Below, in pieces: positions 24,609 through 38,075 of a DNA stretch of 64,000 bases. Source of the stretch: a virus. The stretch spans positions 2,763 through 66,762 of the IMG/VR virus record IMGVR_UViG_3300028559_000035, one strand, 5' to 3'. Made by a program: the position numbers and the translations under genes. Positions within the stretch are counted from its first letter, which is position 1. Each line of letters begins with the position of its first letter. The notes beneath the pieces are model-generated. The model was not told the origin of the DNA. It did no database searches and was given only the letters and a program-made list of their open reading frames with translations.

Positions 24609-26760
24609 TTATCTTATTAAGTTTACTGTTCCAGAATTATATTGCTTAGTTCTATTTAAATTTCTCCAATTAATAACATAGATATAAACATCTTGTGGAC
24701 AAATTTTGTCACCATATGTACCATCCCAACCATTATCTACATCAAATGAATGGTATATTTGCTCTCCCCATCTATTGAAAATAGATATCTCAAAATCTGT
24801 AATCATAGAACCTGTAGCTAAAAACCTATCATTAACTCCATCAAAATTTGGACTGAAAGAATTTGGAATATAAAGAACTGATATTGGATTTACTTTAATA
24901 CATGTTTCTGTTGAATCTATACAGAAAGGAATACCAGTTGAAAATTGACTAGTTGCTACTAAATTAACACAATAATCACCAATTAGTTTATATTTATATT
25001 TTAATTCAAATTGATTTGAAGTTGTTCCATCACCTAAATCCCAGAAGAATGAATCTCCATTCTCTGATATATTTTCAAATTCAAAATTAGCATCTAAAAT
25101 ATCTAATGTTTTAGATGGTTTTACTAAAAAATTAGCAACTGGTGATTGGTTAATAATTATATAATCTAGTTTTAATAAAGTATCTGAACATCCTAGATTA
25201 GTTAGACCAGATAAAGAAACTGAATAAATACCTGAATTTTCAAAACAATTTTGAACAGATTGTCCATTTTTTAATTCATTATTAAAATTCCAAGTATATA
25301 ATATTGATGATATAGGAAAATCAACTGTAAAATCTATACAGAATGGAGTACATCCAGTACTATCTGATTCACTAAATTGAACATCTGGAAGAGGATTTAC
25401 ATTAACAAGGTAATTATATGTTTCTATACAACCATTTGCATCAGTTAATGTAGCTGTATAGATAGTTGTTATAATAGGATTTACAGTTGTAATATTAGGA
25501 TATGTTTGAATATTTTGAGAATTAGACCAAATTATACTAAATGGTGAAATCGATCCATTTTGATTTACATCTAATAGAATATCTTCTCCTTGACAAATAG
25601 TTGTTAAATTTTTACCAGTTAAACTTATATCAATAGGTTGTGTTAATATAAAATTATCTACTAATACACAACCATTATTATCAATAACACTTATTTGATA
25701 ATTTCCTGCAAATAATCCTGTAATTAGTGGAGTATTTTGAACCGGAACTGTATTCCAAGTAATATTATACGGTAGTGTGCCTCCATTAATATTACTCTGA
25801 ATTTGACCATTTGAATATCCAAAACATTGTGGTTGTATTGATGTGAAAGTATTTGAAAGAGGTAAACTCGGTCCCAATATTTGAATATTACTAACTTGTA
25901 ATACACAACCATTTTGATCTGTTATATTAATAGTATAAGTGCCTGTTCCTAAATTTTGGAAGAATCCGGTATTATTCACTTCAGTTGTAATATCATATGA
26001 ATAAGGACCAACTCCACCATTTGCATTTATAGATATTTGTCCGTTTGTATTACCAAAACAATCAATATTTGTTATAATTGGTGGATTATTTGTTAATTGA
26101 GTAGGTTCAGTTATATTAACATTTATATTTGATAAACATCCATTAAAATCTTGTACTAAAACATTAGAAACTCCAGCACCAATTCCAGTAAATTGTCCAG
26201 TATTATTTGATATTGAACCCAATGTATATGTATATGGTGCAATTCCATTTACTGAGTTTAATGTAAAACTTCCGGTTAAATCACCATTACATAATATATT
26301 TTGTTGATTTATTATACTATTCATAACTGGTGTGTTTTCATTAACTTGTACTATTATAGGTAAAGATTGACAATTATTATTATCAATAGCAATAACTTGA
26401 TAACTTCCAGAACCAATACCACTATATGGCATCACTACTGGATTTCCATCCACAGTAAAAGTATAAGGTGGTGTGCCACCATTAGCATTAAAATTAAATC
26501 CACCATCTAAAAATCCATTACAAGTAACATTAGTAACTGATAATTGATTAAGTGTTGGTAACACATTACATCCAGTAACAATGGTTCCTGGTGATAACTG
26601 AGATTGATAAAATCCATTACAACCAACTGTTACCCAACTTCCAGCATATCCATCAGATACCGGTGAAACATTAACAGTTAATGGTAATCCAATATTATTG
26701 GATGCAATCACACTAAAACATATAGTCCAGGGACCGGTTCCCATATCACCCCAATCATCT
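24609..26760 (-). pseudogene. 5'-truncated SprB-repeat/PKD protein with type B T9SS C-terminal (gliding-motility-associated) domain
   Basis: Repeats C.G..G......GG..PY.Y; PKD WDLGDG; C-terminus YIPNSFSPN.DGVND.F...IFNRWG...GWDG...G.V.LIR; no signal peptide, coding character lost near 26760. Confidence 0.75.
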
Positions 26761-29726: not shown

Positions 29727-30254
29727 TTAGTTAGATCTTTCTAAATTTGTAGCCCTATTTAAATAATAGTCTTCATTAAATCCTAATCTTTTTAATAAAG
29801 GTAAAAAATTATTATTTAAAATATTGATAGTTTCATCTATATCTATATTATCAAACTCTTCTAAGTAACAATAATCGGTTTCACCAGTTGTTATATCTTT
29901 AATAAAAACATCTCCACGATATTCAGATTTTTGATATAAAATACACATATCTATTGTAGATTTACTTCTAAAATAGATAGAGACAGAGACATGGAAAGAT
30001 TCATTTCTAATTATAAATACAAAAACATCATTATCATTGGTTACAAAATGATTATCATCTTCAACAATACACCTGTTAATAACTGGAACAAAATATCTTA
30101 ATTTTTTAAAAAAAATTGATACAGGCATTTGAATACTTAGAACACTTGCAAAATTATTGTCTATATCTTTATTCAAATCATCTTTAGATATATCTGGATT
30201 TAGATTCTTTTGAATTTCATCATCAAATAGTTCATTTAGTTTCTTAATATTCAT
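29727..30254 (-). CDS. CTS-like tagged hypothetical protein (MNIKKLNE)
   Basis: ORF track; late-type box upstream. Confidence 0.5.
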   Translation of the reverse strand: MNIKKLNELFDDEIQKNLNPDISKDDLNKDIDNNFASVLSIQMPVSIFFKKLRYFVPVINRCIVEDDNHFVTNDNDVFVFIIRNESFHVSVSIYFRSKSTIDMCILYQKSEYRGDVFIKDITTGETDYCYLEEFDNIDIDETINILNNNFLPLLKRLGFNEDYYLNRATNLERSN

Positions 30255-30507
30255 AATATTTATAGTTTTTCTTATATATTAATAATTAAATTTTAGTAAC
30301 CAGCAAGATAGATAAATTTTTTTAAGAAATTTATCATTTTATTTTCACTATTTCCAGAAGAAACTTGTACCCATGAACCACACACCTTAGTCTAAGTACC
30401 GGATAATCTGTATAATTTGTATCAATTATGTATAATGGATAATTTTCATCCCAATCTTCTTTAAAATAAAATTGTTTATATAGAATTTTATAACTATATT
30501 TGTAAAT

Positions 30508-31146
30508 ATGAAGTATAACTCCTTTAGATATCTGTATCCTCCCAGACCTAAAAACGCGATTCCAGATTCAGATTTGAATTTCTGGGATAATGGTTCATTG
30601 CTTGGTCAACCAAAAATAAATGGTTCAAATGCAACTATCTATACTAATGGAATAGAACTATTAGTTATGAATCGACATGGACAATATCTAACCAATGTTA
30701 ATATTTCGAAAGAAGAAATTCTTCGTTTATTTCGTGGTGAAGTTGGTAAATGGTTGGTATTAAATGGAGAATATTTAAATAAATCTAAGCAAGACGAAAA
30801 TCGTCTCGTATTCAATCATAAACTTGTTATTTTTGATATACTAGTTTATAATTCAGAATACCTTATAGGAGAAACATTTCAAGATAGAATAAATCTTCTT
30901 GATGAATTATATGAGCAAAAATATTCTGAAAAGCCTTATTTATACTCAATTTCAGATAATATTTATCATGTTAAGTCATTTGAAACCGGATTCAAATCTA
31001 TATTTGATGAATTAACAAAAATAGATATGATCGAAGGTTTAGTATTAAAGAGAAAGAATGCTAAACTTGAACCAGGAAATAGTGAAAATAATAATATCAA
31101 ATCACAAATTAAAGCTCGTAAAAGATCCAAATCTTATAAATATTAG
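30508..31146 (+). CDS. Minimal ATP-dependent ligase/capping-type nucleotidyltransferase domain
   Basis: QPKING (motif I variant), LNGE, FDIL, EGLVLK, QIKAR; no OB domain. Confidence 0.7.
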   Translation: MKYNSFRYLYPPRPKNAIPDSDLNFWDNGSLLGQPKINGSNATIYTNGIELLVMNRHGQYLTNVNISKEEILRLFRGEVGKWLVLNGEYLNKSKQDENRLVFNHKLVIFDILVYNSEYLIGETFQDRINLLDELYEQKYSEKPYLYSISDNIYHVKSFETGFKSIFDELTKIDMIEGLVLKRKNAKLEPGNSENNNIKSQIKARKRSKSYKY

Positions 31147-31158
31147 AAAGTAAATTAT

Positions 31159-31716
31159 ATGATAAAAAAATTTGAATCTTATTCCCAAGAATTACATGAT
31201 TATGTAAAGGGAAAAACAAAATTGACACCACAGACTAATATTCTTATGAATGATAGGAGTAAAAATTGGTATGAGGAACTTGGAAAATATTTTGTTGATG
31301 TATTTGGTAAGAATTTACCAGGTGGATTATCATTTTATAATGATAAGATAGATAAACTTGGAATATTGGATAAATTAAGTGGTAAATCTGAAAGGTTATA
31401 CGCTAATATAGGAATATTCGTATTCACATCAGTTTTTGATGAAGATGTTCTTAGATCTTTATTTGGTGAACCACTTTATCATGATGAGTTTGGTGAGGGA
31501 TTTGAAGGAGAATATGATGAAGAAACAGATGATTATTTAGAACCAGAAAATAAATTTCAATATGCTTCTCATTTTGTTGAAATTGAAGGTGTTAAATTTC
31601 ATATTGGATATGACCACCGAGGAACTTCAATGGAAGTTGAAGTAGGAACATCACCTCAAAAATTATTTGAGTGTATTAAAAGTTTAATTGATAAATATAA
31701 AACAATTTTGAAATAA
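31159..31716 (+). CDS. CTS-like tagged hypothetical protein (MIKKFES)
   Basis: ORF track. Confidence 0.5.
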   Translation: MIKKFESYSQELHDYVKGKTKLTPQTNILMNDRSKNWYEELGKYFVDVFGKNLPGGLSFYNDKIDKLGILDKLSGKSERLYANIGIFVFTSVFDEDVLRSLFGEPLYHDEFGEGFEGEYDEETDDYLEPENKFQYASHFVEIEGVKFHIGYDHRGTSMEVEVGTSPQKLFECIKSLIDKYKTILK

Positions 31717-31750
31717 ACTTATTTATTATTATATTTGTAATAAGATATAA

Positions 31751-31856
31751 TTACTGATTTACGAATGGTGCGGTCATAACAGTTATCTTTTAGTTAACGG
31801 AGTTAACACTATAAGATATAGGCTGATGGCGGTATACTCACAGTAAAATATTAATT
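31751..31856 (+). ncRNA. Candidate rod-shaped structured ncRNA (~106 nt)
   Basis: Closing stem TTACTG/CAGTAA; CGGTC/GGCTG; TATCTT/AAGATA; TTAAC-GGA-GTTAA; own TATATTTG box at 31730; no ORF. Confidence 0.5.
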
Positions 31857-31883
31857 TTTTATAAACTAGTAAAAAATACTACA

Positions 31884-32060
31884 ATGTATAGAACTATTGA
31901 AGAATTAGAATCTTTAAACTTTAAAGAACTTCCACAAGAAGAAAGACTTACTATTATGTTATCTATTATAGATAACCTTGATATCGATATTTCTCAATTC
32001 AAAAAATACTTTCTTAAAGAAGATATAGATATTCTTAAAAAAAGAAATAAATATTCTTAA
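31884..32060 (+). CDS. 58-aa hypothetical protein (not in ORF track)
   Basis: Manual translation MYRTIEELESLNF...NKYS. Confidence 0.45.
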   Translation: MYRTIEELESLNFKELPQEERLTIMLSIIDNLDIDISQFKKYFLKEDIDILKKRNKYS

Positions 32061-32143
32061 AATAAAATTTGGAAGTTTAAAAACTTTCTGTATATTTGTA
32101 ATATAAAATCAAAAGAGACATAAACTTTTTAATATATAAAGAA

Positions 32144-32245
32144 ATGAAAACATTAATAAACATATTAGTTAACCCTCAACCACAAGTTGTTGTCGATCAG
32201 GATCAAGATCCCGATACGAATGAGGCTAACTGCATGTTTATGTGA
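32144..32245 (+). CDS. Putative attenuator leader peptide (33 aa, PQPQVVVDQDQDPD)
   Basis: MKTLINILVNPQPQVVVDQDQDPDTNEANCMFM; lies between promoter boxes (32091, 32130) and a terminator. Confidence 0.7.
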   Translation: MKTLINILVNPQPQVVVDQDQDPDTNEANCMFM

Positions 32246-32268
32246 TGTGAAAACATTATAAAGAACTG

Positions 32269-32305
32269 AACCCAGTTAGTCTAAAAAAGATTAACTGGGT
32301 TTTTT
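32269..32305 (+). terminator. Intrinsic terminator (attenuator) upstream of tRNA-Asp/Pro/Pro
   Basis: AACCCAGTTAGTC-loop-GATTAACTGGGTT followed by a T run. Confidence 0.8.
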
Positions 32306-32314
32306 ATTTTATAT

Positions 32315-32386
32315 AGTTCGTGAGTATGTTGGTATAAATATCCGGCTGTCAACCGGAAGAAGCGGGTTCAATTCCCGTACGAACTG
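32315..32386 (+). tRNA. tRNA-Asp(GTC)
   Basis: TCCGG-CTGTCAA-CCGGA; T arm GCGGG-TTCAATT-CCCGT; G discriminator. Confidence 0.8.
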
Positions 32387-32444
32387 CGAGTGAGACTGTT
32401 ACTAATACATAGAAGGCTTGGGCCTTGCATAGAATTAGATTTTT

Positions 32445-32521
32445 CGAGTAGTGACTAAGGTTATAAGCACGGGAGCCCTGGAAGCTTCAGTTAACAGGTT
32501 CGATTCCTGTCTACTCGACCA
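32445..32521 (+). tRNA. tRNA-Pro(TGG), C33 variant, encoded CCA
   Basis: C1-G72, A73, CCA; GGAGC-CCTGGAA-GCTTC. Confidence 0.7.
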
Positions 32522-32525
32522 AATA

Positions 32526-32601
32526 CGAGATATTGTGGAGTCAGGTACCCCGCCTGGTTTGGGACCAGGAGAACTCGCAGGTTCGAATCCTACTATCTCG
32601 A
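32526..32601 (+). tRNA. tRNA-Pro(TGG)
   Basis: CCTGG-TTTGGGA-CCAGG; GTTCGAATCC; C1-G72, A73. Confidence 0.85.
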
Positions 32602-32652
32602 CTATAAATTTAGGGAAACCGACATTTTTAATATATAAAAATAAAATATCGT

Positions 32653-33174
32653 ATGAATTTAGAAGAAGAAATAAAAAATTGTTATAGTGTAACAGATTTT
32701 TGTAAACTATTAAACCTATCATCGGGTGGTGGTGGATTTAATAAAGCAAAAATGATAATTCAAGATAATAATCTGGATATATCTCATTTTAATAAAGGAT
32801 ACTTTAAAAGACAAAAGAATCCTAGAATTGAAAAGATTTGTCCAGTTTGTGGTGAAAATTTTGAAACAGTAACTTGGAGTAATAAAAAAGAAAAAACTAC
32901 ATGCTCAAAATCATGTGCTAATTCTTATTTTAGAAGTGGATTAAATAATCCTAACTGGAAAGATAATTCTTACAGAACTACTTGTTTCTATTACCACAAA
33001 AAAGAATGTGTAATATGTGGGGAGGAAAAAATTGTGGAAGTACATCATATGGATGAAAATCATATGAATAATAAACCAGAAAATTTAGTACCCTTATGTC
33101 CTACACATCATCAGTATTGGCATTCAAGATATAAAATAGAAATAGAAGAAAAGATAGATAATGAAATCATATAA
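32653..33174 (+). CDS. HNH homing endonuclease inside tRNA cluster
   Basis: CVICG...EVHHMDEN..NN..ENL..LCPTHH; CPVCG...CSKSC. Confidence 0.8.
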   Translation: MNLEEEIKNCYSVTDFCKLLNLSSGGGGFNKAKMIIQDNNLDISHFNKGYFKRQKNPRIEKICPVCGENFETVTWSNKKEKTTCSKSCANSYFRSGLNNPNWKDNSYRTTCFYYHKKECVICGEEKIVEVHHMDENHMNNKPENLVPLCPTHHQYWHSRYKIEIEEKIDNEII

Positions 33175-33973
33175 ACAATTTATTACAGAATCTAAAACAG
33201 ATATTGATTCTATTTGTAAAAAATATAATATAAAGAATTATATCATAAATGAAGATGGTTCAATTAATGTGGATGGAGATGTTGATTTTGATAGATATAA
33301 CTTAATTGAACTGCCATTAAAATTTGAAAAAGTTACTGGAGTATTTGATTGTGATAACAATAAATTAACTTCTTTGAAAGGTGCTCCTAAAGAAGTTGGT
33401 GGCACCTTCTATTGTAATAGAAATAAATTAACTTCACTAGAAGGTTGTCCAAAAAAGGTTGGTGGTGATTTTTATTGTAGTAATAATAAATTAACTTCTT
33501 TAGAAGGAGGTCCAGAAACTATTATAGGGGATCTTAATTGTGATAATAACATTATTAACTTTAGAGGAATACCTGAATTCTTTGAAGGTAATTTTTATTG
33601 TGCATTTAATGAATTAACTTCTTTAGAAGGTTGCCCAAAAAAAGTAAAGAATTTTGATTGTAATGATAATTTATTAAATTCACTAGTTGGATGTCCAGAA
33701 GAGGTTGGTGGTTATATTGATTGTAGAAATAATAGAATAATTGATTTTAGAGGTATATCTGAATTTTTTGAAGGTAAATTTTATTGTGGAGGTAATCCAA
33801 TATATGAGATTTATTCATTATTTGATGAGGATGTTAGATGTATTTGTCTAATTAATGAATTTGATGTTATTGACGGAGAGAAAGTTATCTTAGATCGATT
33901 AGAGGAAGTATTTCATCAATTAGGAATGGAAATTCCACAAAATATAAGATTTAGAAATTATGAAATCGTATAA
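33161..33973 (+). CDS. Leucine-rich-repeat protein (21-aa NNKLTSLEGCPKKVGGDFYC repeats), CTS-tagged
   Basis: Visible repeats; N-terminus MKSYKQFITES. Confidence 0.8.
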   Translation: MKSYKQFITESKTDIDSICKKYNIKNYIINEDGSINVDGDVDFDRYNLIELPLKFEKVTGVFDCDNNKLTSLKGAPKEVGGTFYCNRNKLTSLEGCPKKVGGDFYCSNNKLTSLEGGPETIIGDLNCDNNIINFRGIPEFFEGNFYCAFNELTSLEGCPKKVKNFDCNDNLLNSLVGCPEEVGGYIDCRNNRIIDFRGISEFFEGKFYCGGNPIYEIYSLFDEDVRCICLINEFDVIDGEKVILDRLEEVFHQLGMEIPQNIRFRNYEIV

Positions 33974-34598
33974 ACAATTTATTAAGGAATCTAAAACAGA
34001 TATTGATTTAATTTGCCAAGATTTTGATATAGAGAATTATACTATTAATCCAGATGAATCTATTGATGTTGATGATAATGTTTATTTAAATAATAGAAAT
34101 CTATCTAGTATTCCATTAAAATTTGGCAGGGTAAGTGGATATTTTAGTTGTTATAATAACAACTTAACTTCATTAGAAGGTTGTCCAGAAAAAGTAGGTG
34201 GTGATTTTTATTGTGATAGTAATGATTTAATTTCATTAAAGGGATGTCCAAAAAAAGTAAATGATTTTAATTGTAAAAATAATCAATTAACTTCATTAGA
34301 AGGTTGTCCAGAAGAGATTGGTGGTTATTTTGATTGCAGAAATAATAAAATATATGATTTTAGAGGGATATCTGAATTTTTCGATGGTACTTTTTATTGT
34401 GGAGATAATCCAATACAAGAAATTTATTCATTATTTGTCACCCAAGGACGTGAGGATGTTAGATGTATTCGACTAATTAATGAGTTTGATGTTATTGATG
34501 GAAAGAAAGTTATCTTAGATCGATTAGAAGACGTATTCCATCAATTAGGAATGGATGTACCAGAAAATATAGAATTTAATTATTATGAAATTATATAG
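33960..34598 (+). CDS. Leucine-rich-repeat protein paralog, CTS-tagged
   Basis: Same repeats and caps; MKSYKQFIKES. Confidence 0.8.
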   Translation: MKSYKQFIKESKTDIDLICQDFDIENYTINPDESIDVDDNVYLNNRNLSSIPLKFGRVSGYFSCYNNNLTSLEGCPEKVGGDFYCDSNDLISLKGCPKKVNDFNCKNNQLTSLEGCPEEIGGYFDCRNNKIYDFRGISEFFDGTFYCGDNPIQEIYSLFVTQGREDVRCIRLINEFDVIDGKKVILDRLEDVFHQLGMDVPENIEFNYYEII

Positions 34599-34670
34599 AT
34601 ATCTTGCCTGGATTCGAACCAGGATCTTTACTTTCAGAGAGTAAAATATTAGCCGTTATACGACAAGACA
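34599..34670 (-). tRNA. tRNA-Gln(CTG)
   Basis: TTACT-CTCTGAA-AGTAA; U1-A72; GGTTCGAATCC. Confidence 0.8.
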
Positions 34671-34678
34671 TTGTATTT

Positions 34679-34707
34679 TGTTATGGAAGTAGGATTCGAA
34701 CCTACAC
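34679..34707 (-). pseudogene. tRNA 3' fragment (T arm + 3' acceptor strand)
   Basis: GTAGG-TTCGAAT-CCTAC-TTCCATA with no matching 5' half. Confidence 0.5.
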
Positions 34708-34726
34708 TGTGCATCTTCAATGTTAG

Positions 34727-34799
34727 TTGGAAAAATAGGAATCGAACCTATATCTTCTGATCCAAGGTCAGAAATAATTTGCCATTATACTATTTTCCA
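34727..34799 (-). tRNA. tRNA-Gln(TTG), C33 variant
   Basis: TCTGA-CCTTGGA-TCAGA; acceptor TGGAAAA/TTTTCCA. Confidence 0.75.
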
Positions 34800-34806
34800 A
34801 AAGTTG

Positions 34807-34877
34807 TTTTCTCGTTTGGATTCAAACCAAAGATAAGGGGGCCAAAGACCCTTGTGTTATCGCTACACTACGAGAAA
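34807..34877 (-). tRNA. tRNA-Gln(TTG), slightly degenerate
   Basis: AGGGT-CTTTGGC-CCCCT; T loop TTTGAAT; acceptor TTTCTCG/CGAGAAA. Confidence 0.7.
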
Positions 34878-34879
34878 AT

Positions 34880-34913
34880 AAAAAACCCGAACCAATTAGA
34901 TTGATTCGGGTTT
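34880..34913 (-). terminator. Intrinsic terminator (attenuator) upstream of tRNA-Gln cluster
   Basis: AAACCCGAATCAAT-CTA-ATTGGTTCGGGTTT followed by a T run on - strand. Confidence 0.8.
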
Positions 34914-34942
34914 ATATGTTTTTAGACAAAACTATACCATTA

Positions 34943-34993
34943 TCAATCTGTTCGATTAATTTGTTGTTGTTGGTATTGAGTTGTTGTTGTCAT
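34943..34993 (-). CDS. Putative attenuator leader peptide MTTTTQYQQQQINRTD
   Basis: Five CAA codons; promoter boxes upstream (TATATTTG at 35029-35036 on - strand, AATATATA); terminator downstream. Confidence 0.75.
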   Translation of the reverse strand: MTTTTQYQQQQINRTD

Positions 34994-35044
34994 ATTCTTT
35001 ATATATATTTTATTTATTCCTTGTTTTACAAATATAGTAATTTT

Positions 35045-35386
35045 TTATTTTTTACCAAAACCTTTTTTAGGTTTATATTTTTGATTTTGTTCACTTCTCA
35101 TAGAAAGTTTAGATTTAATTTCATCAATAACATCTTTTTTGGTAGATTTTTCATCAATTTTAATATTAACTCCGTTAAATTCACCAGTAACAATCGATCT
35201 TTTACCAGCAACAAATTGTGCATAAGCAGCCACTTTATTATGTTGAACATCTTTAAAATGTTTTAACAATCTATCAACATATTTTTCAATACTTTCACCA
35301 CCCATTGCTTCCAAATTATACTCTAATTTTTCAGATTTAGTTTTTATTGAAACAGGCTTTATAAATCTACTAATAAATCTACTCAT
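35045..35386 (-). CDS. Basic hypothetical protein
   Basis: 113-aa ORF; late-type box upstream. Confidence 0.5.
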   Translation of the reverse strand: MSRFISRFIKPVSIKTKSEKLEYNLEAMGGESIEKYVDRLLKHFKDVQHNKVAAYAQFVAGKRSIVTGEFNGVNIKIDEKSTKKDVIDEIKSKLSMRSEQNQKYKPKKGFGKK

Positions 35387-35432
35387 TATTATATTATTTT
35401 TTATTATATATTAAAAATATATATTTATTTTG

Positions 35433-35522
35433 TCGAGATGACAGGATTCGAACCTGCATGTTCACTTTCGTTACTCTCCTGGTCCCAAACCAGGCCGGAA
35501 GCCAATTACCGATTACATCTCG
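35433..35522 (-). tRNA. tRNA-Pro(TGG) with long variable arm
   Basis: CCTGG-TTTGGGA-CCAGG; ~20-nt variable region AGAGTAACGAAAGTGAACAT; C1-G72, A73. Confidence 0.75.
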
Positions 35523-35592
35523 TCTTGTAGATTGATCATTACCAGTCCGACACTTTCGGCGGGTTAAGATTCCGAGACAATCTACTTTATTG

Positions 35593-35665
35593 CGGTCCAT
35601 ACCGGATTCGAACCGGCACCACACACCTTGACAGGGTGGCATTGTAACCATTCAACCAATGGACC
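35593..35665 (-). tRNA. tRNA-Asp(GTC)
   Basis: Loop CTGTCAA; GCCGG-TTCGAAT-CCGGT; G73. Confidence 0.85.
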
Positions 35666-35670
35666 TTTTG

Positions 35671-35744
35671 CGGATATGAAGGGATTCGAACCCTCGATCT
35701 CCTCCGTGACAGGGAGGCATGTTAGGCCACTACACCACACATCC
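35671..35744 (-). tRNA. tRNA-Asp(GTC)
   Basis: CCTCC-CTGTCAC-GGAGG; canonical cloverleaf; G73. Confidence 0.9.
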
Positions 35745-35750
35745 TTTTAG

Positions 35751-35839
35751 CGGATACACCTGGACTCGAACCAAGATCTACCCCAACACACTAGGGCCAC
35801 TCTACCAACGACGTTTTCGTCTAGTTAAGCTATATATCC
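35751..35839 (-). tRNA. Atypical tRNA-like RNA (identity undetermined)
   Basis: Acceptor GGATATA/TGTATCC; T arm CTTGG-TTCGAGT-CCAGG; D loop with inserted GACG-AAAA-CGTC hairpin; irregular anticodon loop AGTGTGTT. Confidence 0.55.
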
Positions 35840-36579
35840 TTTTTAAATCTTTTTATATAATAATTCTCAAATTTTATATTTTCTGCTGCCAACATACCTA
35901 ATTGATGAAATACTTCTTCAAGTCTATCCAAGATAACTTTTTTTCCATCTACAATAACATCAAACTCGTTAATCAATCGAATACATCTAACATCACTATA
36001 AAATAAATTAAATATTTCCCATATTGGATTACCCAGACAATAAAATTTACCATCAAAGAAATCTGATATTCCCTTAAAATTAGTAATTTTATTTGATAGA
36101 CAATAAAAATCTGTACCGATAATCTCTGGACATCCTACTAATGAAGTTAATTTATTACCACTACAATAAAAATCTCCACCCACCTTTTCTGGACCACCAT
36201 TTAGTGAAGTTAATTTATTACCACTACAATAAAAATCTCCACCCACCTTTTCTGGACCACCATTTAGTGAAGTTAATTTATTATTATGACATCCAAAATC
36301 ACCATTTACTAATTTTGGACATCCTTTAAGTGAAGTTAATTTATTATTAGAACAAAAAAAATTTCCACTAATTTTACTAAATTTTACTGGAATTTCTTTC
36401 AAAGAAGTATTTGATGCCTCCTTGGCGGTGTACGAAAATACAGGTTTTAAATAAACACTCCCATCTACGTCAATAGATCCATTATCATTTATGGTATAGT
36501 TATTAATATTAAACTTTGCACAAATTGGGTCTATTTTATATTTATGAAAAACACTTTTAAACTTTTTTAAATATTTCAT
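35830..36579 (-). CDS. Leucine-rich-repeat protein paralog
   Basis: Same 21-aa repeats and C-terminal DVRCIRLINEFDVI..KKVILDRLEEVFHQLGM cap. Confidence 0.8.
   Translation of the reverse strand: MKYLKKFKSVFHKYKIDPICAKFNINNYTINDNGSIDVDGSVYLKPVFSYTAKEASNTSLKEIPVKFSKISGNFFCSNNKLTSLKGCPKLVNGDFGCHNNKLTSLNGGPEKVGGDFYCSGNKLTSLNGGPEKVGGDFYCSGNKLTSLVGCPEIIGTDFYCLSNKITNFKGISDFFDGKFYCLGNPIWEIFNLFYSDVRCIRLINEFDVIVDGKKVILDRLEEVFHQLGMLAAENIKFENYYIKRFKKDI
36142..36283. repeat. Exact 63-bp tandem duplication (one LRR unit)
   Basis: Unit starting TGAAGTTAATTTATTACCACTAC at 36142 and 36205, partial third copy at 36268. Confidence 0.9.
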
Positions 36580-36601
36580 ATTTTATATATTATAAAAATT
36601 T

Positions 36602-37653
36602 TTGTATATTTATGAAATGAAGTATAATGATAGAGGAACAAAATTATTAACCTACAAACATAAAAATAAACAAGAAACCACAACAGATTTCTATGAAGTT
36701 TATCGAAACAAGATTGTTAAAAAATTTAGTAGAGAAGTTCTTATATCTGGTGTTGATCCAGAATGGTGGTCTCTTGTTAGCAAAGAAAAAAGATATTCAT
36801 TATGTCAAAATTATGAGTTTCATAAAACCTTTACATCTGGTGAAGAAGTAAATCTTAAAGATTATATAGAAAAAAATAAAAAAGGTCTTGTTGATATTTC
36901 AAAATTAAGAGAGTTGAAATTACGTAAATTATTAAAATAATGGAACAGATACTAAAAAATAAAATTCCTGGATTATTTAGGTTAATCTCTATTGATAAAA
37001 TACCTAATAGTGAACCTCTGGAGTGGAAATCTGGACAACATTTTATTAAATATGTAGAACTATCTTATAGAACAGATAAATCTCCTGTATTTTTTATCAA
37101 AAATACAATATTAGATTTAACAACAGAATATAGGGAACTTAATATTTCTAAAATATTAAGTTCCGATGATAAAATAAATTTTGAAGTAAATGAGTCATTC
37201 TATACAGAAGAACAAATTAAAAAAATAGAACTTCTAAGAAAAAATAGAAAATTAGAAAATTCTAATAGATGTATTTTACAAAATTGTAAAATTGAATGGT
37301 CTAATAAATTTAAACTAGGAGATAGAGTATATTATAAGGGTGATATAGGAATTATTACTTATAAACATAATATGAAATCTCCAGATTCTCCACAAGAATG
37401 GACTGTTAGATCTAATGGTGTTGAATATAGATATGTTAGTGGATCTTCATTGAAAATACACGAAAAAGTAGATTTATCATATATTGAAGTTGATAAAGAA
37501 TTAGATAAACTACCTACTTCAAAGCTTTTAAAGATGTATAAAAAATCATTAAAAGTAGGTAAAGGTGTGGGTAATAGAAGGATAAAAAGAGTTCTTTACG
37601 AAAGAGAAGATTTAACAAATAAAAATCCAAGTAAAATTGTAAATGTCAGATAA
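36602..37653 (+). CDS. Two hypothetical proteins with RExK-type motif (36602..36940, 36940..37653)
   Basis: LRELKLRKLLK; internal YRELNISKIL. Confidence 0.5.
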
Positions 37654-37667
37654 TAATATATAGTTAA

Positions 37668-38075
37668 ATGAAATATTTAAAACTATATAAAATATTTGAA
37701 TCTGATAATATAGAAGATCAATTAGATACTATTAAAGATATGTTTACTGATATAACTGATGGGTATAATATTGATTCTAATATTTATTATCATCAGGAGA
37801 GTACAACATATCTGAGCTCAACTGGTCCGGTTAGCAAGAAAACTGATTATATAGTTATTGATATTGATATTGATAAAAAAATTGGAAGTAAAGATATTAT
37901 TAGAAATTTATTAAAAGATATATTTTCATTCACTGATAGAGTCGTTTCACATTTCGGAGTTAAAGTTAACTACTGTTTGGGTGGTAATGAAATAATAAAT
38001 AAGGGAGATCATATTTTAAAAAATTGGCACAATTGGGAAGGTGAATACTTTCAAATATATTTTACACAAGAGTAA
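37668..38075 (+). CDS. CTS-tagged hypothetical protein (MKYLKLYKIFES)
   Basis: TAATATATA box just upstream. Confidence 0.55.
   Translation: MKYLKLYKIFESDNIEDQLDTIKDMFTDITDGYNIDSNIYYHQESTTYLSSTGPVSKKTDYIVIDIDIDKKIGSKDIIRNLLKDIFSFTDRVVSHFGVKVNYCLGGNEIINKGDHILKNWHNWEGEYFQIYFTQE

What the first reader, a model, noticed from the sequence alone, without database searches (positions are those of the whole stretch)
34599..35036. Second attenuator: poly-Gln (CAA) leader upstream of an all-Gln tRNA cluster
Seen on the - strand: TATATTTG and AATATATA boxes, then MTTTTQYQQQQINRTD* (five CAA codons), a terminator hairpin with T run, and tRNA-Gln(TTG), Gln(TTG), a fragment and Gln(CTG). AGATTGAT, spanning the leader stop codon, is perfectly complementary to ATCAATCT in the terminator 5' arm and loop. 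CAA is the codon read by the first two tRNAs. This independent copy of the architecture at 32091, with a different leader sequence, argues against chance. The four Thr codons have no clear matching tRNA here.
Basis: partly seen in the sequence, partly recalled or inferred. Interest (0 to 1): 0.87.

Follow-up and report, generated by a model that had tools for sequence, protein, structure and literature searches.

The report
Glutamine-sensing attenuator gating phage tRNA-Gln genes
A huge lake-water phage puts a tiny test gene with a run of glutamine codons and a switchable transcription stop directly in front of its glutamine tRNA genes, so it probably makes those tRNAs only when ribosomes read glutamine codons slowly.

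Summary
On the - strand lie a 16-codon ORF with five CAA codons (34993-34943) and a 14-pair intrinsic terminator (34913-34883). Its T run touches the first of three tRNA-Gln genes.

I found the same unit in 25 distinct loci: the window, 2 GenBank huge phages of Bacteroidetes-type hosts, 9 IMG/VR contigs and 13 metagenome contigs. Leaders diverge almost completely except for an in-frame run of 2-7 Gln codons (3 or more in 24 of 25), varying only CAA/CAG.

In most relatives with downstream sequence, a phage glutaminyl-tRNA synthetase gene follows the tRNA-Gln genes.

Three mutually exclusive helices are conserved:
- 1:2, starting right after the Gln run.
- 3:4, the terminator.

The 2:3 helix is 87% paired, with compensatory changes at 6 of 11 pairs (0 of 500 shuffles). 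It starts 7-13 nt after the Gln run in 24 of 25 loci, wherever the stop codon lies.

Best reading (about 0.7): a trp/pheST-style leader-peptide attenuator sensing Gln-tRNA supply. No expression data exist. This scan reported the same family earlier on other phage genomes. I found no published account for tRNA genes.

The parts
35029..35036 (-). Host-type (Bacteroidota-like, TAnnTTTG) -7 promoter box TATATTTG. This is a candidate promoter of the leader transcript.
   Evidence: Read directly. The same box and following bases recur upstream of the L012 leader. That the consensus is Bacteroidota-type is recalled, not tested. The extended motif is not enriched in the window.
35002..35009 (-). AATATATA box about 10 nt upstream of the ATG. 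It may be a phage-type promoter, which would give a very short 5' UTR.
   Evidence: Read directly. A similar box lies before the leader ATG in L010 and L012. Its function is not tested.
34943..34993 (-). Leader ORF of 16 sense codons plus TGA, with Gln at codons 6 and 8-11, all CAA.
   Evidence: The frame, ATG and in-frame stop are kept in 25 of 25 related loci.
34961..34972 (-). Regulatory run of four CAA codons, the proposed ribosome stall site.
   Evidence: It is the only (CAR)4 in the window, with 0 of 100 shuffles giving any. Runs of 2-7 Gln codons occur in all 25 loci (3 or more in 24), with only CAA/CAG variation.
34954..34960 (-). Region 1 (ATTAATC). This is the 5' arm of the 1:2 hairpin and starts immediately after the Gln run.
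   Evidence: Hairpin in the MFE of the free leader. The helix is 84.8% paired over 25 sequences.
34936..34949 (-). Region 2 (AGATTGAT spanning the stop codon, then GGT). It pairs either with region 1 or with region 3.
34918..34938 (-). Conserved block after region 2. It forms the inner hairpin of the antiterminator. It may also hold an RNA polymerase pause site (inference).
   Evidence: Alignment A2 has invariant or near-invariant G56, G57, T63, T65, T66, G67 and T68. The inner hairpin appears in truncated folds. No covariation with the leader 5' end was seen by eye in A2.
34898..34911 (-). Region 3: ACC at the base, and ATCAATCT at the top and loop, of the terminator 5' arm.
34875..34913 (-). 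Intrinsic terminator (3:4 hairpin at 34913-34883, then the T run). The T run overlaps the first bases of the tRNA.
   Evidence: 14 pairs, 5 G-C. (-17.1 kcal/mol).
34806..34877 (-). tRNA-Gln(UUG), copy 1.
   Evidence: 52.4 bits.
34726..34799 (-). tRNA-Gln(UUG), copy 2.
   Evidence: 59.4 bits.
34671..34726 (-). Truncated remnant: the 3' half of a long-variable-arm tRNA-Gln(UUG).
   Evidence: Alignment A4 against the 82-85-nt tRNA-Gln of L001, L002, L008 and L010.
34598..34670 (-). tRNA-Gln(CUG).
   Evidence: 54.9 bits.

Best explanation
This is a ribosome-mediated (leader-peptide) transcription attenuator that measures how fast Gln codons, mainly CAA, are decoded. It sets read-through into the phage's own tRNA-Gln genes and, in relatives, into a phage glutaminyl-tRNA synthetase gene as well.

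Proposed course of events:
1. Transcription starts at the boxes upstream. In many relatives it instead continues from an upstream tRNA block.
2. A ribosome translates the 16-codon leader.
3. If Gln-tRNA(UUG) is plentiful, the ribosome runs to the stop codon, which lies inside region 2. It covers region 2, so regions 3 and 4 fold into the terminator and RNA polymerase stops at the T run just before the first tRNA.
4. If Gln-tRNA is scarce, the ribosome stalls with one of the last CAA codons in its A site. It then covers region 1, which begins right after the run, and leaves region 2 free, which begins about 10 nt after the run.
5. Free region 2 pairs with region 3 (AGATTGAT with ATCAATCT, plus GGT with ACC and an inner hairpin). 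The terminator cannot form, and the tRNA-Gln genes are transcribed.

The result is negative feedback on Gln decoding capacity in a phage whose genes use CAA for 91% of Gln codons.

Shown here: the sequence elements, their conservation, the covariation of the helices and the fixed geometry. Inferred: that the leader is translated, that stalling occurs, that transcription and translation are coupled, and that the terminator is efficient.
For: 1. Anatomy in the window.

2. Recurrence. There are 25 distinct leader-terminator units, each directly in front of a tRNA-Gln block (one of them, L006, has an inserted ORF between terminator and tRNA). They were found by blastn, DNA patterns and, independently of the leader sequence, through the neighbouring GlnRS gene. 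Every terminator-preceded tRNA-Gln block I found has a Gln-rich short ORF.

3. Only the Gln run is conserved in the peptide.
- Leaders are 14-26 sense codons with 4-7 Gln codons.
- The N- and C-terminal parts differ completely between classes.
- All variation inside the runs is CAA/CAG (121 CAA, 27 CAG).
- Run length varies in whole codons.
- The run ends in two CAA codons in 23 of 25 loci.

4. The antiterminator (2:3).
- The best duplex between the post-run segment and the terminator 5' arm plus loop beats dinucleotide shuffles at p <= 0.05 in 23 of 25 loci.
- In L013, L027 and L029 all these sequences differ, yet the cognate pair ranks first of 25 in both directions.
- On a MAFFT alignment not fitted to structure, 87.2% of 250 cells pair and 6 of 11 pairs change on both sides. 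0 of 500 shuffles reach the paired share or the covariation score. Slid controls give 20-50%.
- An alignment fitted by a covariance model gives the same picture.

5. Geometry. Region 2 starts 7-13 nt after the Gln run in 24 of 25 loci, and 9-11 nt in 20 of 25. The stop codon lies anywhere from 1 nt before to 23 nt after that start. In L010 and L012 the region 2 motif is kept in a different reading frame, so it is an RNA element and not a coding one.

6. The 1:2 hairpin begins 0-1 nt after the run. It is 84.8% paired, with 1 of 500 shuffles reaching that share.

7. State-dependent folds with the terminator 3' arm not yet made. With a ribosome stalled in the run, at least 6 nt of the terminator 5' arm are sequestered in 25 of 25 loci. 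With a ribosome at the stop codon, this holds in 6 of 25.

8. Functional link. The downstream genes are tRNA-Gln and, in most relatives with sequence held downstream, GlnRS.

9. Controls.
- Of 51 bacterial-type glnS loci, 2 have any (CAR)3 within 400 nt upstream, and neither of those has a terminator-like hairpin.
- The covariance model hits none of the bacterial-type loci at E <= 1.
- The leader pattern is absent from 185,579 species genomes.

10. Other tRNA blocks of these phages carry leaders that match their own tRNAs: an Asp/Pro(/Gln) type and an Asn/Leu/Thr/Val/Ile/Cys/Arg type. The matched fraction is 0.32 against 0.225 for permuted pairings, with 0 of 2000 permutations as high.
Against: - There is no expression evidence of any kind.
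- With the whole sequence present, the terminator is always in the MFE (12 of 12). The switch must therefore be kinetic.
- Without any ribosome, equilibrium folding sequesters the 5' arm in 16 of 25 loci. The classical 'no translation means termination' default is therefore not predicted uniformly.
- RNAalifold gave no consensus structure on the truncated alignment (0 pairs).
- Covariation in 1:2 is weak. 2 of 7 pairs change on both sides, and 96 of 500 shuffles do as well.
- The GGT:ACC part of the antiterminator is only 75% paired.
- The 25 loci are related, so the shuffle counts are not probabilities.
- There is no Shine-Dalgarno sequence. That is expected for Bacteroidota (recalled), but it leaves initiation unproven.
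- In many relatives the leader lies about 40 nt after an upstream tRNA, inside a tRNA precursor.
- Which RNA polymerase transcribes the unit, and whether it is coupled to ribosomes in this host, is unknown.
- The window has no GlnRS gene after the tRNAs, and none is in the 66.8-kb record, which is about 20% complete.
- An earlier check within this scan of a sister claim on other DNA put the mechanistic reading at only 30/100.
Confidence: 0.7

Rival explanations
1. The hairpin is a constitutive, possibly leaky terminator or a processing and stability hairpin that separates tRNA blocks. The short ORF is conserved for another reason, for example a micropeptide or a translated spacer that protects the precursor. 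Under this view the 2:3 complementarity plays no regulatory role.
For: - The terminator dominates every full-length MFE.
- There is no expression data.
- In several relatives the leader sits inside a longer tRNA operon.
- The conserved block after region 2 has no proven role.
Against: - Apart from the Gln run the peptide is not conserved, which argues against a functional micropeptide.
- The 2:3 pairing covaries and keeps a fixed distance from the Gln run.
- The T run abuts the tRNA, which leaves no room for a separate tRNA promoter. The tRNAs can therefore only be made by read-through.
- Leaders of other tRNA blocks mirror their own tRNAs.
Confidence: 0.15
2. This is an untranslated RNA switch. 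The CAA run would be bound directly, either by the anticodon of uncharged tRNA-Gln in a T-box-like manner or by a protein that recognises A-R-N repeats. That binding would decide between antiterminator and terminator.
For: - CAA is complementary to the UUG anticodon.
- (CAA)n is also an A-R-N repeat (recalled: the binding preference of the Hfq distal face).
- The logic of T-boxes, which is recalled, is the same as proposed here.
Against: - No T-box or other known leader family matched at E <= 1 in 30000-38000.
- The element is about 115 nt, far smaller than a T-box (size of T-boxes recalled).
- In 25 of 25 loci the run is in frame with an ATG 4-8 codons upstream and a stop downstream.
- Within the runs the first codon base never varies. 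An A-R-N reading would leave that base free, whereas a Gln codon fixes it.
- The conserved GG of region 2 is explained by pairing with the CC at the terminator base.
Confidence: 0.08
3. The arrangement is a chance one: a CAA microsatellite next to an ordinary terminator.
For: The genome is 24% G+C, so A-rich repeats and short A/T complementarities are common.
Against: - 0 of 100 shuffles of the window give any (CAR)4.
- 25 loci keep the unit although the flanking sequence has diverged.
- The helices covary.
Confidence: 0.02

Closest known systems
E. coli pheST operon attenuator with the pheM leader peptide (recalled from my own knowledge; my search returned no paper on it)
   Same: - A short leader ORF rich in the cognate codon.
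- An intrinsic terminator and alternative pairings.
- The controlled product belongs to the decoding machinery (an aminoacyl-tRNA synthetase) rather than to amino-acid synthesis.
- In the relatives described here, GlnRS lies in the controlled unit.
   Different: - Here the first and main controlled genes are tRNA genes.
- The element is phage-encoded.
- The amino acid is Gln.
- The host type is Bacteroidota, and no Shine-Dalgarno sequence is present.
- There is no sequence similarity.
Classical leader-peptide attenuators of amino-acid operons (trpL, hisL, leuL, thrL, pheL, ilv leaders)
   Same: - The four-region layout (1:2, 2:3, 3:4).
- Regulatory codons just 5' of, or inside, region 1.
- The stop codon near region 2.
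- The terminator directly before the first controlled gene.
   Different: - The targets are tRNA-Gln genes, not biosynthetic enzymes.
- No known Gln leader exists, to my knowledge.
- No Rfam leader family matched at E <= 1.
- The default state without translation is not clearly 'terminated' in equilibrium folds.
His-codon leader peptide predicted upstream of hisS paralogues and hisZ in bacilli (PMC2965389; passages seen)
   Same: A leader peptide with a run of cognate codons lies before a synthetase-family gene, in a lineage outside Proteobacteria.
   Different: It is bacterial and chromosomal, and it controls no tRNA genes. That paper has 0 occurrences of 'tRNA gene' and 0 of 'phage'.
T-box riboswitches (mechanism recalled)
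   Same: They sense the charging state of one tRNA and control genes of the same amino acid's decoding machinery through an antiterminator/terminator choice.
   Different: A T-box binds the tRNA directly and needs no ribosome. No T-box match was found here, and this element has a conserved translated frame.
Anabaena trn operon: a silent tRNA array switched on under translational stress (PMC8421152, term look-up only; PMC10272220, search listing and start of abstract only)
   Same: An accessory tRNA operon is expressed on demand when translation is impaired.
   Different: According to the abstract of PMC10272220, control there is by a transcriptional repressor. PMC8421152 has 0 occurrences of 'attenuat', 'leader peptide' and 'terminator'.
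Bacteroid-trp leader motif of Bacteroidetes (recalled; not tested here)
   Same: It would show that leader-peptide attenuation is used in the presumed host phylum.
   Different: It involves Trp codons and precedes biosynthetic genes. It is bacterial.

Membership tests
Ribosome-mediated (leader-peptide) transcription attenuators | A short ORF with start and stop codons that is enriched in codons of the sensed amino acid. | tested here: met
   In the window, 5 of 16 sense codons are Gln, against 2.3% genome-wide. Across the loci, 4-7 Gln codons occur in leaders of 14-26 sense codons in 25 of 25.
Ribosome-mediated (leader-peptide) transcription attenuators | An intrinsic terminator between the leader and the controlled genes. 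| tested here: met
   (14 pairs plus a T run, abutting the tRNA). Hairpins range from -13.4 to -21.0 kcal/mol, each followed by a T run, in 25 of 25 loci.
Ribosome-mediated (leader-peptide) transcription attenuators | [quoted passage not shown] | tested here: met
   87.2% paired, 6 of 11 pairs changed on both sides, 0 of 500 shuffles.. A caveat is that RNAalifold found no consensus structure.
Ribosome-mediated (leader-peptide) transcription attenuators | A region 1 that pairs with region 2 and is masked by a ribosome stalled on the regulatory codons. | tested here: inconclusive
   The hairpin starts 0-1 nt after the Gln run and is 84.8% paired. Covariation is weak: 2 of 7 pairs. It is poorly formed in L020, L029 and L039.
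Ribosome-mediated (leader-peptide) transcription attenuators | The controlled genes serve the same amino acid. | tested here: met
   tRNA-Gln x3 in the window. Relatives have tRNA-Gln x1-4 followed by GlnRS.
Ribosome-mediated (leader-peptide) transcription attenuators | The leader is translated, and read-through rises when the cognate charged tRNA is limiting. | not testable with these tools
T-box riboswitch | Stem I with a specifier loop, and the conserved T-box sequence in the antiterminator. | tested here: not met
   The Rfam scan of 30000-38000 at E <= 1 listed only tRNAs and one sub-threshold sRNA match.
Known Rfam leader families (His, Trp, Thr, Leu/Phe leaders and the like) | A match to the family covariance model. 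| tested here: not met
   No such match at E <= 1.

The most novel reading that the evidence does not exclude
Huge phages of Bacteroidota may run a modular 'tRNA on demand' system. Each block of phage tRNA genes, and the phage GlnRS, would sit behind its own leader peptide written in the codons those tRNAs read. Often these units lie in series on one transcript. The phage would then measure decoding speed codon family by codon family and top up only what is short.

Such a sensor would also respond if the host depletes or cleaves particular tRNAs as a defence. That would make it a built-in counter-defence trigger.
Probability: 0.45. Interest if true: 0.88.

Novelty: new variant of a known kind. 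Interest (0 to 1): 0.76.

Why it matters
Leader-peptide attenuation is textbook for amino-acid operons and for pheST. I found no account of it controlling tRNA genes, and none in a phage.

If real, it would show three things.
- Huge phages do not simply carry extra tRNAs. They regulate them by direct feedback from the ribosome.
- A tRNA and its synthetase can be co-regulated by the decoding rate of their own codon.
- Classical attenuation works in hosts of Bacteroidota type that lack Shine-Dalgarno-led initiation.

The element gives a compact, testable part of about 115 nt for studying how phages take over translation. It also gives a way to read, from sequence alone, which codons a phage expects to be limiting.

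Tried and rejected
- RNA evidence. The look-up of sequencing runs listed 24 DNA-type runs, 9 of which held at least 0.2 of the sampled words; 7 of those 9 are labelled lake water metagenome and 2 are not.
- RNAalifold on the truncated leaders gave no consensus pairs. I therefore counted pairs on a structure that I named myself.
- Equilibrium folding of full-length leaders, with or without ribosome masks, always keeps the terminator. It cannot show the switch, so I used folds lacking the 3' arm instead.
- Pairing of the conserved block after region 2 with the start-codon region is predicted in some MFEs. By eye in alignment A2 it shows no covariation, so I rejected it as a conserved helix.
- The same block as a Bacteroidota -7 promoter box: only a few loci fit the recalled consensus, and a promoter directly before a terminator makes no sense. 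Rejected.
- T-box or direct tRNA binding, an A-R-N/Hfq-type site, a micropeptide and a chance microsatellite are treated under the rival explanations.
- GlnRS in the window's own record: none found. The record is only about 20% complete, so this says nothing.
- Genome-contig scan with the degenerate leader pattern: 0 matches.
- The extended promoter motif is not enriched in the window.
- In one search my automatic choice of the longest short ORF picked an overlapping frame for L011 instead of its Gln leader. The row was kept in the count.
- Literature searches found no paper on leader-peptide attenuators of tRNA genes or of phage genes. The huge-phage paper PMC7162821 has 0 occurrences of 'attenuat' and 0 of 'leader'.
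Full report
WHAT THE WINDOW IS

The window is 64 kb of a 66.8-kb IMG/VR virus record estimated to be about 20% complete, with 21-31% G+C.

Its genes include phage-type helicase and homing endonucleases. One protein carries SprB, PKD and a type IX secretion signal domain, which points to a Bacteroidota host.

The tRNA region matches two GenBank 'uncultured phage' genomes of 634,780 and 642,428 bp. The huge-phage paper states that its genomes above 634 kb are predicted to replicate in Bacteroidetes and fall in the Mahaphage clade (PMC7162821, passages seen).

THE OBSERVATION

On the - strand I read the following:
- the two boxes TATATTTG and AATATATA;
- a 16-codon ORF (34993-34943) with Gln at codons 6 and 8-11, all CAA;
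- a hairpin of 14 pairs with a T run (34913-34883);
- tRNA-Gln(UUG), tRNA-Gln(UUG), a remnant and tRNA-Gln(CUG).

The remnant aligns with the 3' half of a long-arm tRNA-Gln(UUG) of relatives.

The T run overlaps the first bases of the first tRNA. These tRNAs can therefore be transcribed only by reading through the terminator.

The (CAR)4 run is unique in the window, and none appeared in 100 shuffles.

RELATIVES

I found homologous units by three routes:
- blastn against phages gave L001 and L002;
- exact and degenerate DNA patterns in viral contigs gave L003-L006;
- the GlnRS gene that follows the tRNA-Gln genes in L001-L004 gave further loci independently of the leader sequence.

Of the 9 GlnRS loci from viral contigs:
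- 2 are the contigs of L003 and L004;
- 1 is cut at the contig end just upstream of a tRNA-Gln;
- 1 (L015) has no tRNA and no leader;
- 5 have the unit.

Of the 80 metagenome loci kept (from 425 confirmed), 26 look phage-like, with GlnRS at least 60% identical. Among these 26:
- 17 have a tRNA-Gln upstream on the same strand;
- 15 of those 17 carry a Gln leader, and two of the 15 are contigs already held;
- 1 is cut 19 nt before the tRNA;
- 1 (L037) has an ORF instead.

Three further phage-like loci have GlnRS behind other tRNA arrays.

The remaining 54 loci are 54-58% identical and 30-51% G+C. They look bacterial and have no tRNA-Gln upstream.

In all there are 25 distinct leader-terminator sequences.

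WHAT IS CONSERVED IN THE PEPTIDE

Leaders are 14-26 sense codons long. Their N- and C-terminal parts differ entirely between classes. What they share is an in-frame run of Gln codons: 4-7 in 23 loci, 3 in L021 and 2 in the degenerate L026.

Within the runs the only variation is CAA/CAG (121 CAA and 27 CAG over all Gln codons of the leaders). The first two codon bases never vary. Run length differs by whole codons. The run ends in two CAA codons in 23 of 25 loci.

The window's own genes use CAA for 284 of 311 Gln codons. This is the pattern expected for regulatory codons of an attenuator. It is not expected for a functional micropeptide or an untranslated repeat.

RNA STRUCTURE

Every unit has a strong hairpin plus T run (-13.4 to -21.0 kcal/mol).

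For each locus I computed the best duplex between two segments. One runs from the end of the Gln run to the terminator. The other is the terminator 5' arm plus loop.
- It beats 500 dinucleotide shuffles at p <= 0.05 in 23 of 25 loci. The exceptions are L010 (0.09) and L021 (0.062).
- In L013, L027 and L029 both strands have quite different sequences, yet the cognate partner ranks first of 25 in both directions.

On a MAFFT alignment that was not fitted to any structure (A3), the named 2:3 helices score as follows:
- 87.2% of 250 cells are paired.
- 6 of 11 pairs change on both sides.
- 0 of 500 shuffles reach the paired share or the covariation score, and 1 of 500 reaches the count of covarying pairs.
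- Partners slid by 1-3 columns give 20-50% pairing.

A covariance model built on this structure found the 25 units. It also found six reverse-strand echoes and one weak extra hit (E 0.52). It hit nothing in the bacterial-type loci (92 sources). Its fitted alignment gives 87.7% paired and 7 of 11 covarying pairs. That alignment leans toward the structure and holds one echo row.

GEOMETRY

The duplex segment of region 2 starts 7-13 nt after the last Gln codon of the run in 24 of 25 loci, and 9-11 nt in 20 of 25. The outlier is the degenerate L026 at 17 nt. The stop codon lies anywhere from 1 nt before to 23 nt after that start.

In L010 and L012 the region 2 motif is kept although it is read in another frame and is no longer a stop codon. 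The fixed point is therefore the Gln run, not the end of the ORF.

A second hairpin, 1:2, begins 0-1 nt after the run and uses the same region 2. It is 84.8% paired (1 of 500 shuffles), but only 2 of 7 pairs covary, which is not significant.

A ribosome with one of the last Gln codons in its A site should cover roughly 10-12 nt downstream (recalled footprint size). That span is region 1 and its loop, and it leaves region 2 just free.

In folds where the terminator 3' arm has not yet been made:
- masking a ribosome stalled in the run sequesters at least 6 nt of the terminator 5' arm in 25 of 25 loci;
- masking a ribosome at the stop codon does so in 6 of 25;
- with no ribosome it does so in 16 of 25.

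The untranslated default is therefore ambiguous at equilibrium.

With the full sequence the terminator always wins (12 of 12). The choice must be kinetic, as in known attenuators.

A block after region 2 is nearly invariant and forms the inner hairpin of the antiterminator. Its invariant G...TG spacing fits the recalled consensus for an elemental RNA polymerase pause. A pause there would give the ribosome time to reach the run. This is inference only.

FUNCTIONAL LINK AND CONTROLS

The controlled genes are tRNA-Gln (1-4 copies) and, in most relatives with downstream sequence, a phage GlnRS. In the window the unit ends after the third tRNA, because a convergent ORF follows.

Controls:
- Bacterial-type glnS loci lack the element. 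Of 51 scanned, 2 have any (CAR)3 upstream, and neither has a terminator-like hairpin.
- The degenerate leader pattern has 0 matches in one genome for each of 185,579 species.

Other tRNA blocks of these phages also sit behind terminators preceded by short ORFs that mirror their own tRNAs (L021 seen):
- an Asp/Pro(/Gln) type occurs in the window at 32144-32245 and in L001, L002, L003, L005, L008, L021 and L026;
- an Asn/Leu/Thr/Val/Ile/Cys/Arg type occurs in L003, L028, L030 and L032.

Over 31 distinct leaders, the mean share of residues served by the downstream tRNAs is 0.32. Permuted pairings give 0.225, and 0 of 2000 permutations reach 0.32. The rows are related, and one row used a wrongly picked ORF.

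In several relatives the Gln unit follows the Asp/Pro block within about 40 nt. The units therefore act in series.

COMPARISON WITH WHAT IS KNOWN

The layout is that of classical leader-peptide attenuators. The closest in purpose is the pheST/pheM attenuator (recalled), together with the His leader predicted before hisS paralogues (PMC2965389, passages seen).

It is not a T-box or any Rfam leader family.

On-demand expression of an accessory tRNA operon is known in Anabaena. There it is controlled by a repressor (PMC10272220, listing and start of abstract only). The primary paper has no mention of attenuators, leader peptides or terminators (PMC8421152, term look-up).

Six full-text searches found no report of leader-peptide attenuation of tRNA genes or in phages.

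EARLIER FINDINGS OF THIS SCAN

The same family was reported on other phage genomes. One of them is the 519-kb phage that is my L013/L025. One later check put the mechanistic reading of a sister claim at 30/100.

My results were obtained independently of those notes. They agree with them and add three things:
- the 25-locus covariation counts;
- the spacing rule relative to the Gln run;
- the bacterial-locus control.

VERDICT

This is a real, conserved element. Most likely (about 0.7) it is a ribosome-mediated attenuator that senses Gln decoding and gates the phage tRNA-Gln genes. It is a new variant of a known kind. Expression, translation of the leader and regulated read-through remain to be shown.

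Noticed in passing
window 32144-32302 (+), and L001, L002, L003, L005, L008, L021, L026: A second leader type has Pro, Gln and Asp codons followed by a 15-pair terminator. It lies directly before tRNA-Asp/Pro blocks, which in two relatives also hold a tRNA-Gln. The peptide core is conserved across 8 loci.
   Followed up: partly
L003 (- strand), L028, L030, L032: A third leader type is rich in Asn, Leu, Thr, Val, Ile, Cys and Arg. With its terminator it precedes arrays of exactly those tRNAs.
   Followed up: partly
L001 1730-1814, L002 2542-2623, L003 657-738, L008 2323-2405, L010 2151-2232; remnant at window 34726-34671: A tRNA-Gln(UUG) of 82-85 nt with a long variable arm is conserved among relatives. 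This is unusual for tRNA-Gln. The window keeps only its 3' half.
   Followed up: partly
L006 about 5330-4870 (- strand): An ORF with Cys-rich and nuclease-like motifs sits between the Gln terminator and the next tRNA-Gln. It looks like a mobile endonuclease inserted inside the controlled unit.
   Followed up: no
L003 about 470-410 (- strand); also the longer GlnRS matches in L009 and L011: Some phage GlnRS genes carry an insertion of about 10 residues just before the HIGH-type motif.
   Followed up: no
window 33161-33973 (+), 33960-34598 (+), 35830-36579 (-): Three paralogous repeat proteins flank the tRNA clusters. They share N- and C-termini and internal leucine-rich-like repeats. There was no Pfam hit for the one tested.
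   Followed up: no
window 34918-34938 (-): A nearly invariant block lies between region 2 and the terminator in all Gln leader classes. It forms an inner hairpin, and it may also be a polymerase pause site.
   Followed up: partly
L015 1800-2100: Upstream of a phage-type GlnRS that lacks tRNAs and a leader lies a G+C-richer stretch with several near-identical repeats of roughly 60-70 nt.
   Followed up: no
window 24609-26744 (-): A 711-aa protein carries SprB repeats, PKD domains and a CHU_C type IX secretion signal. This is a host-like Bacteroidota surface protein in a phage.
   Followed up: no
window 32445-32518 (+): Rfam finds a tRNA here at 34.5 bits that ARAGORN does not list.
   Followed up: no
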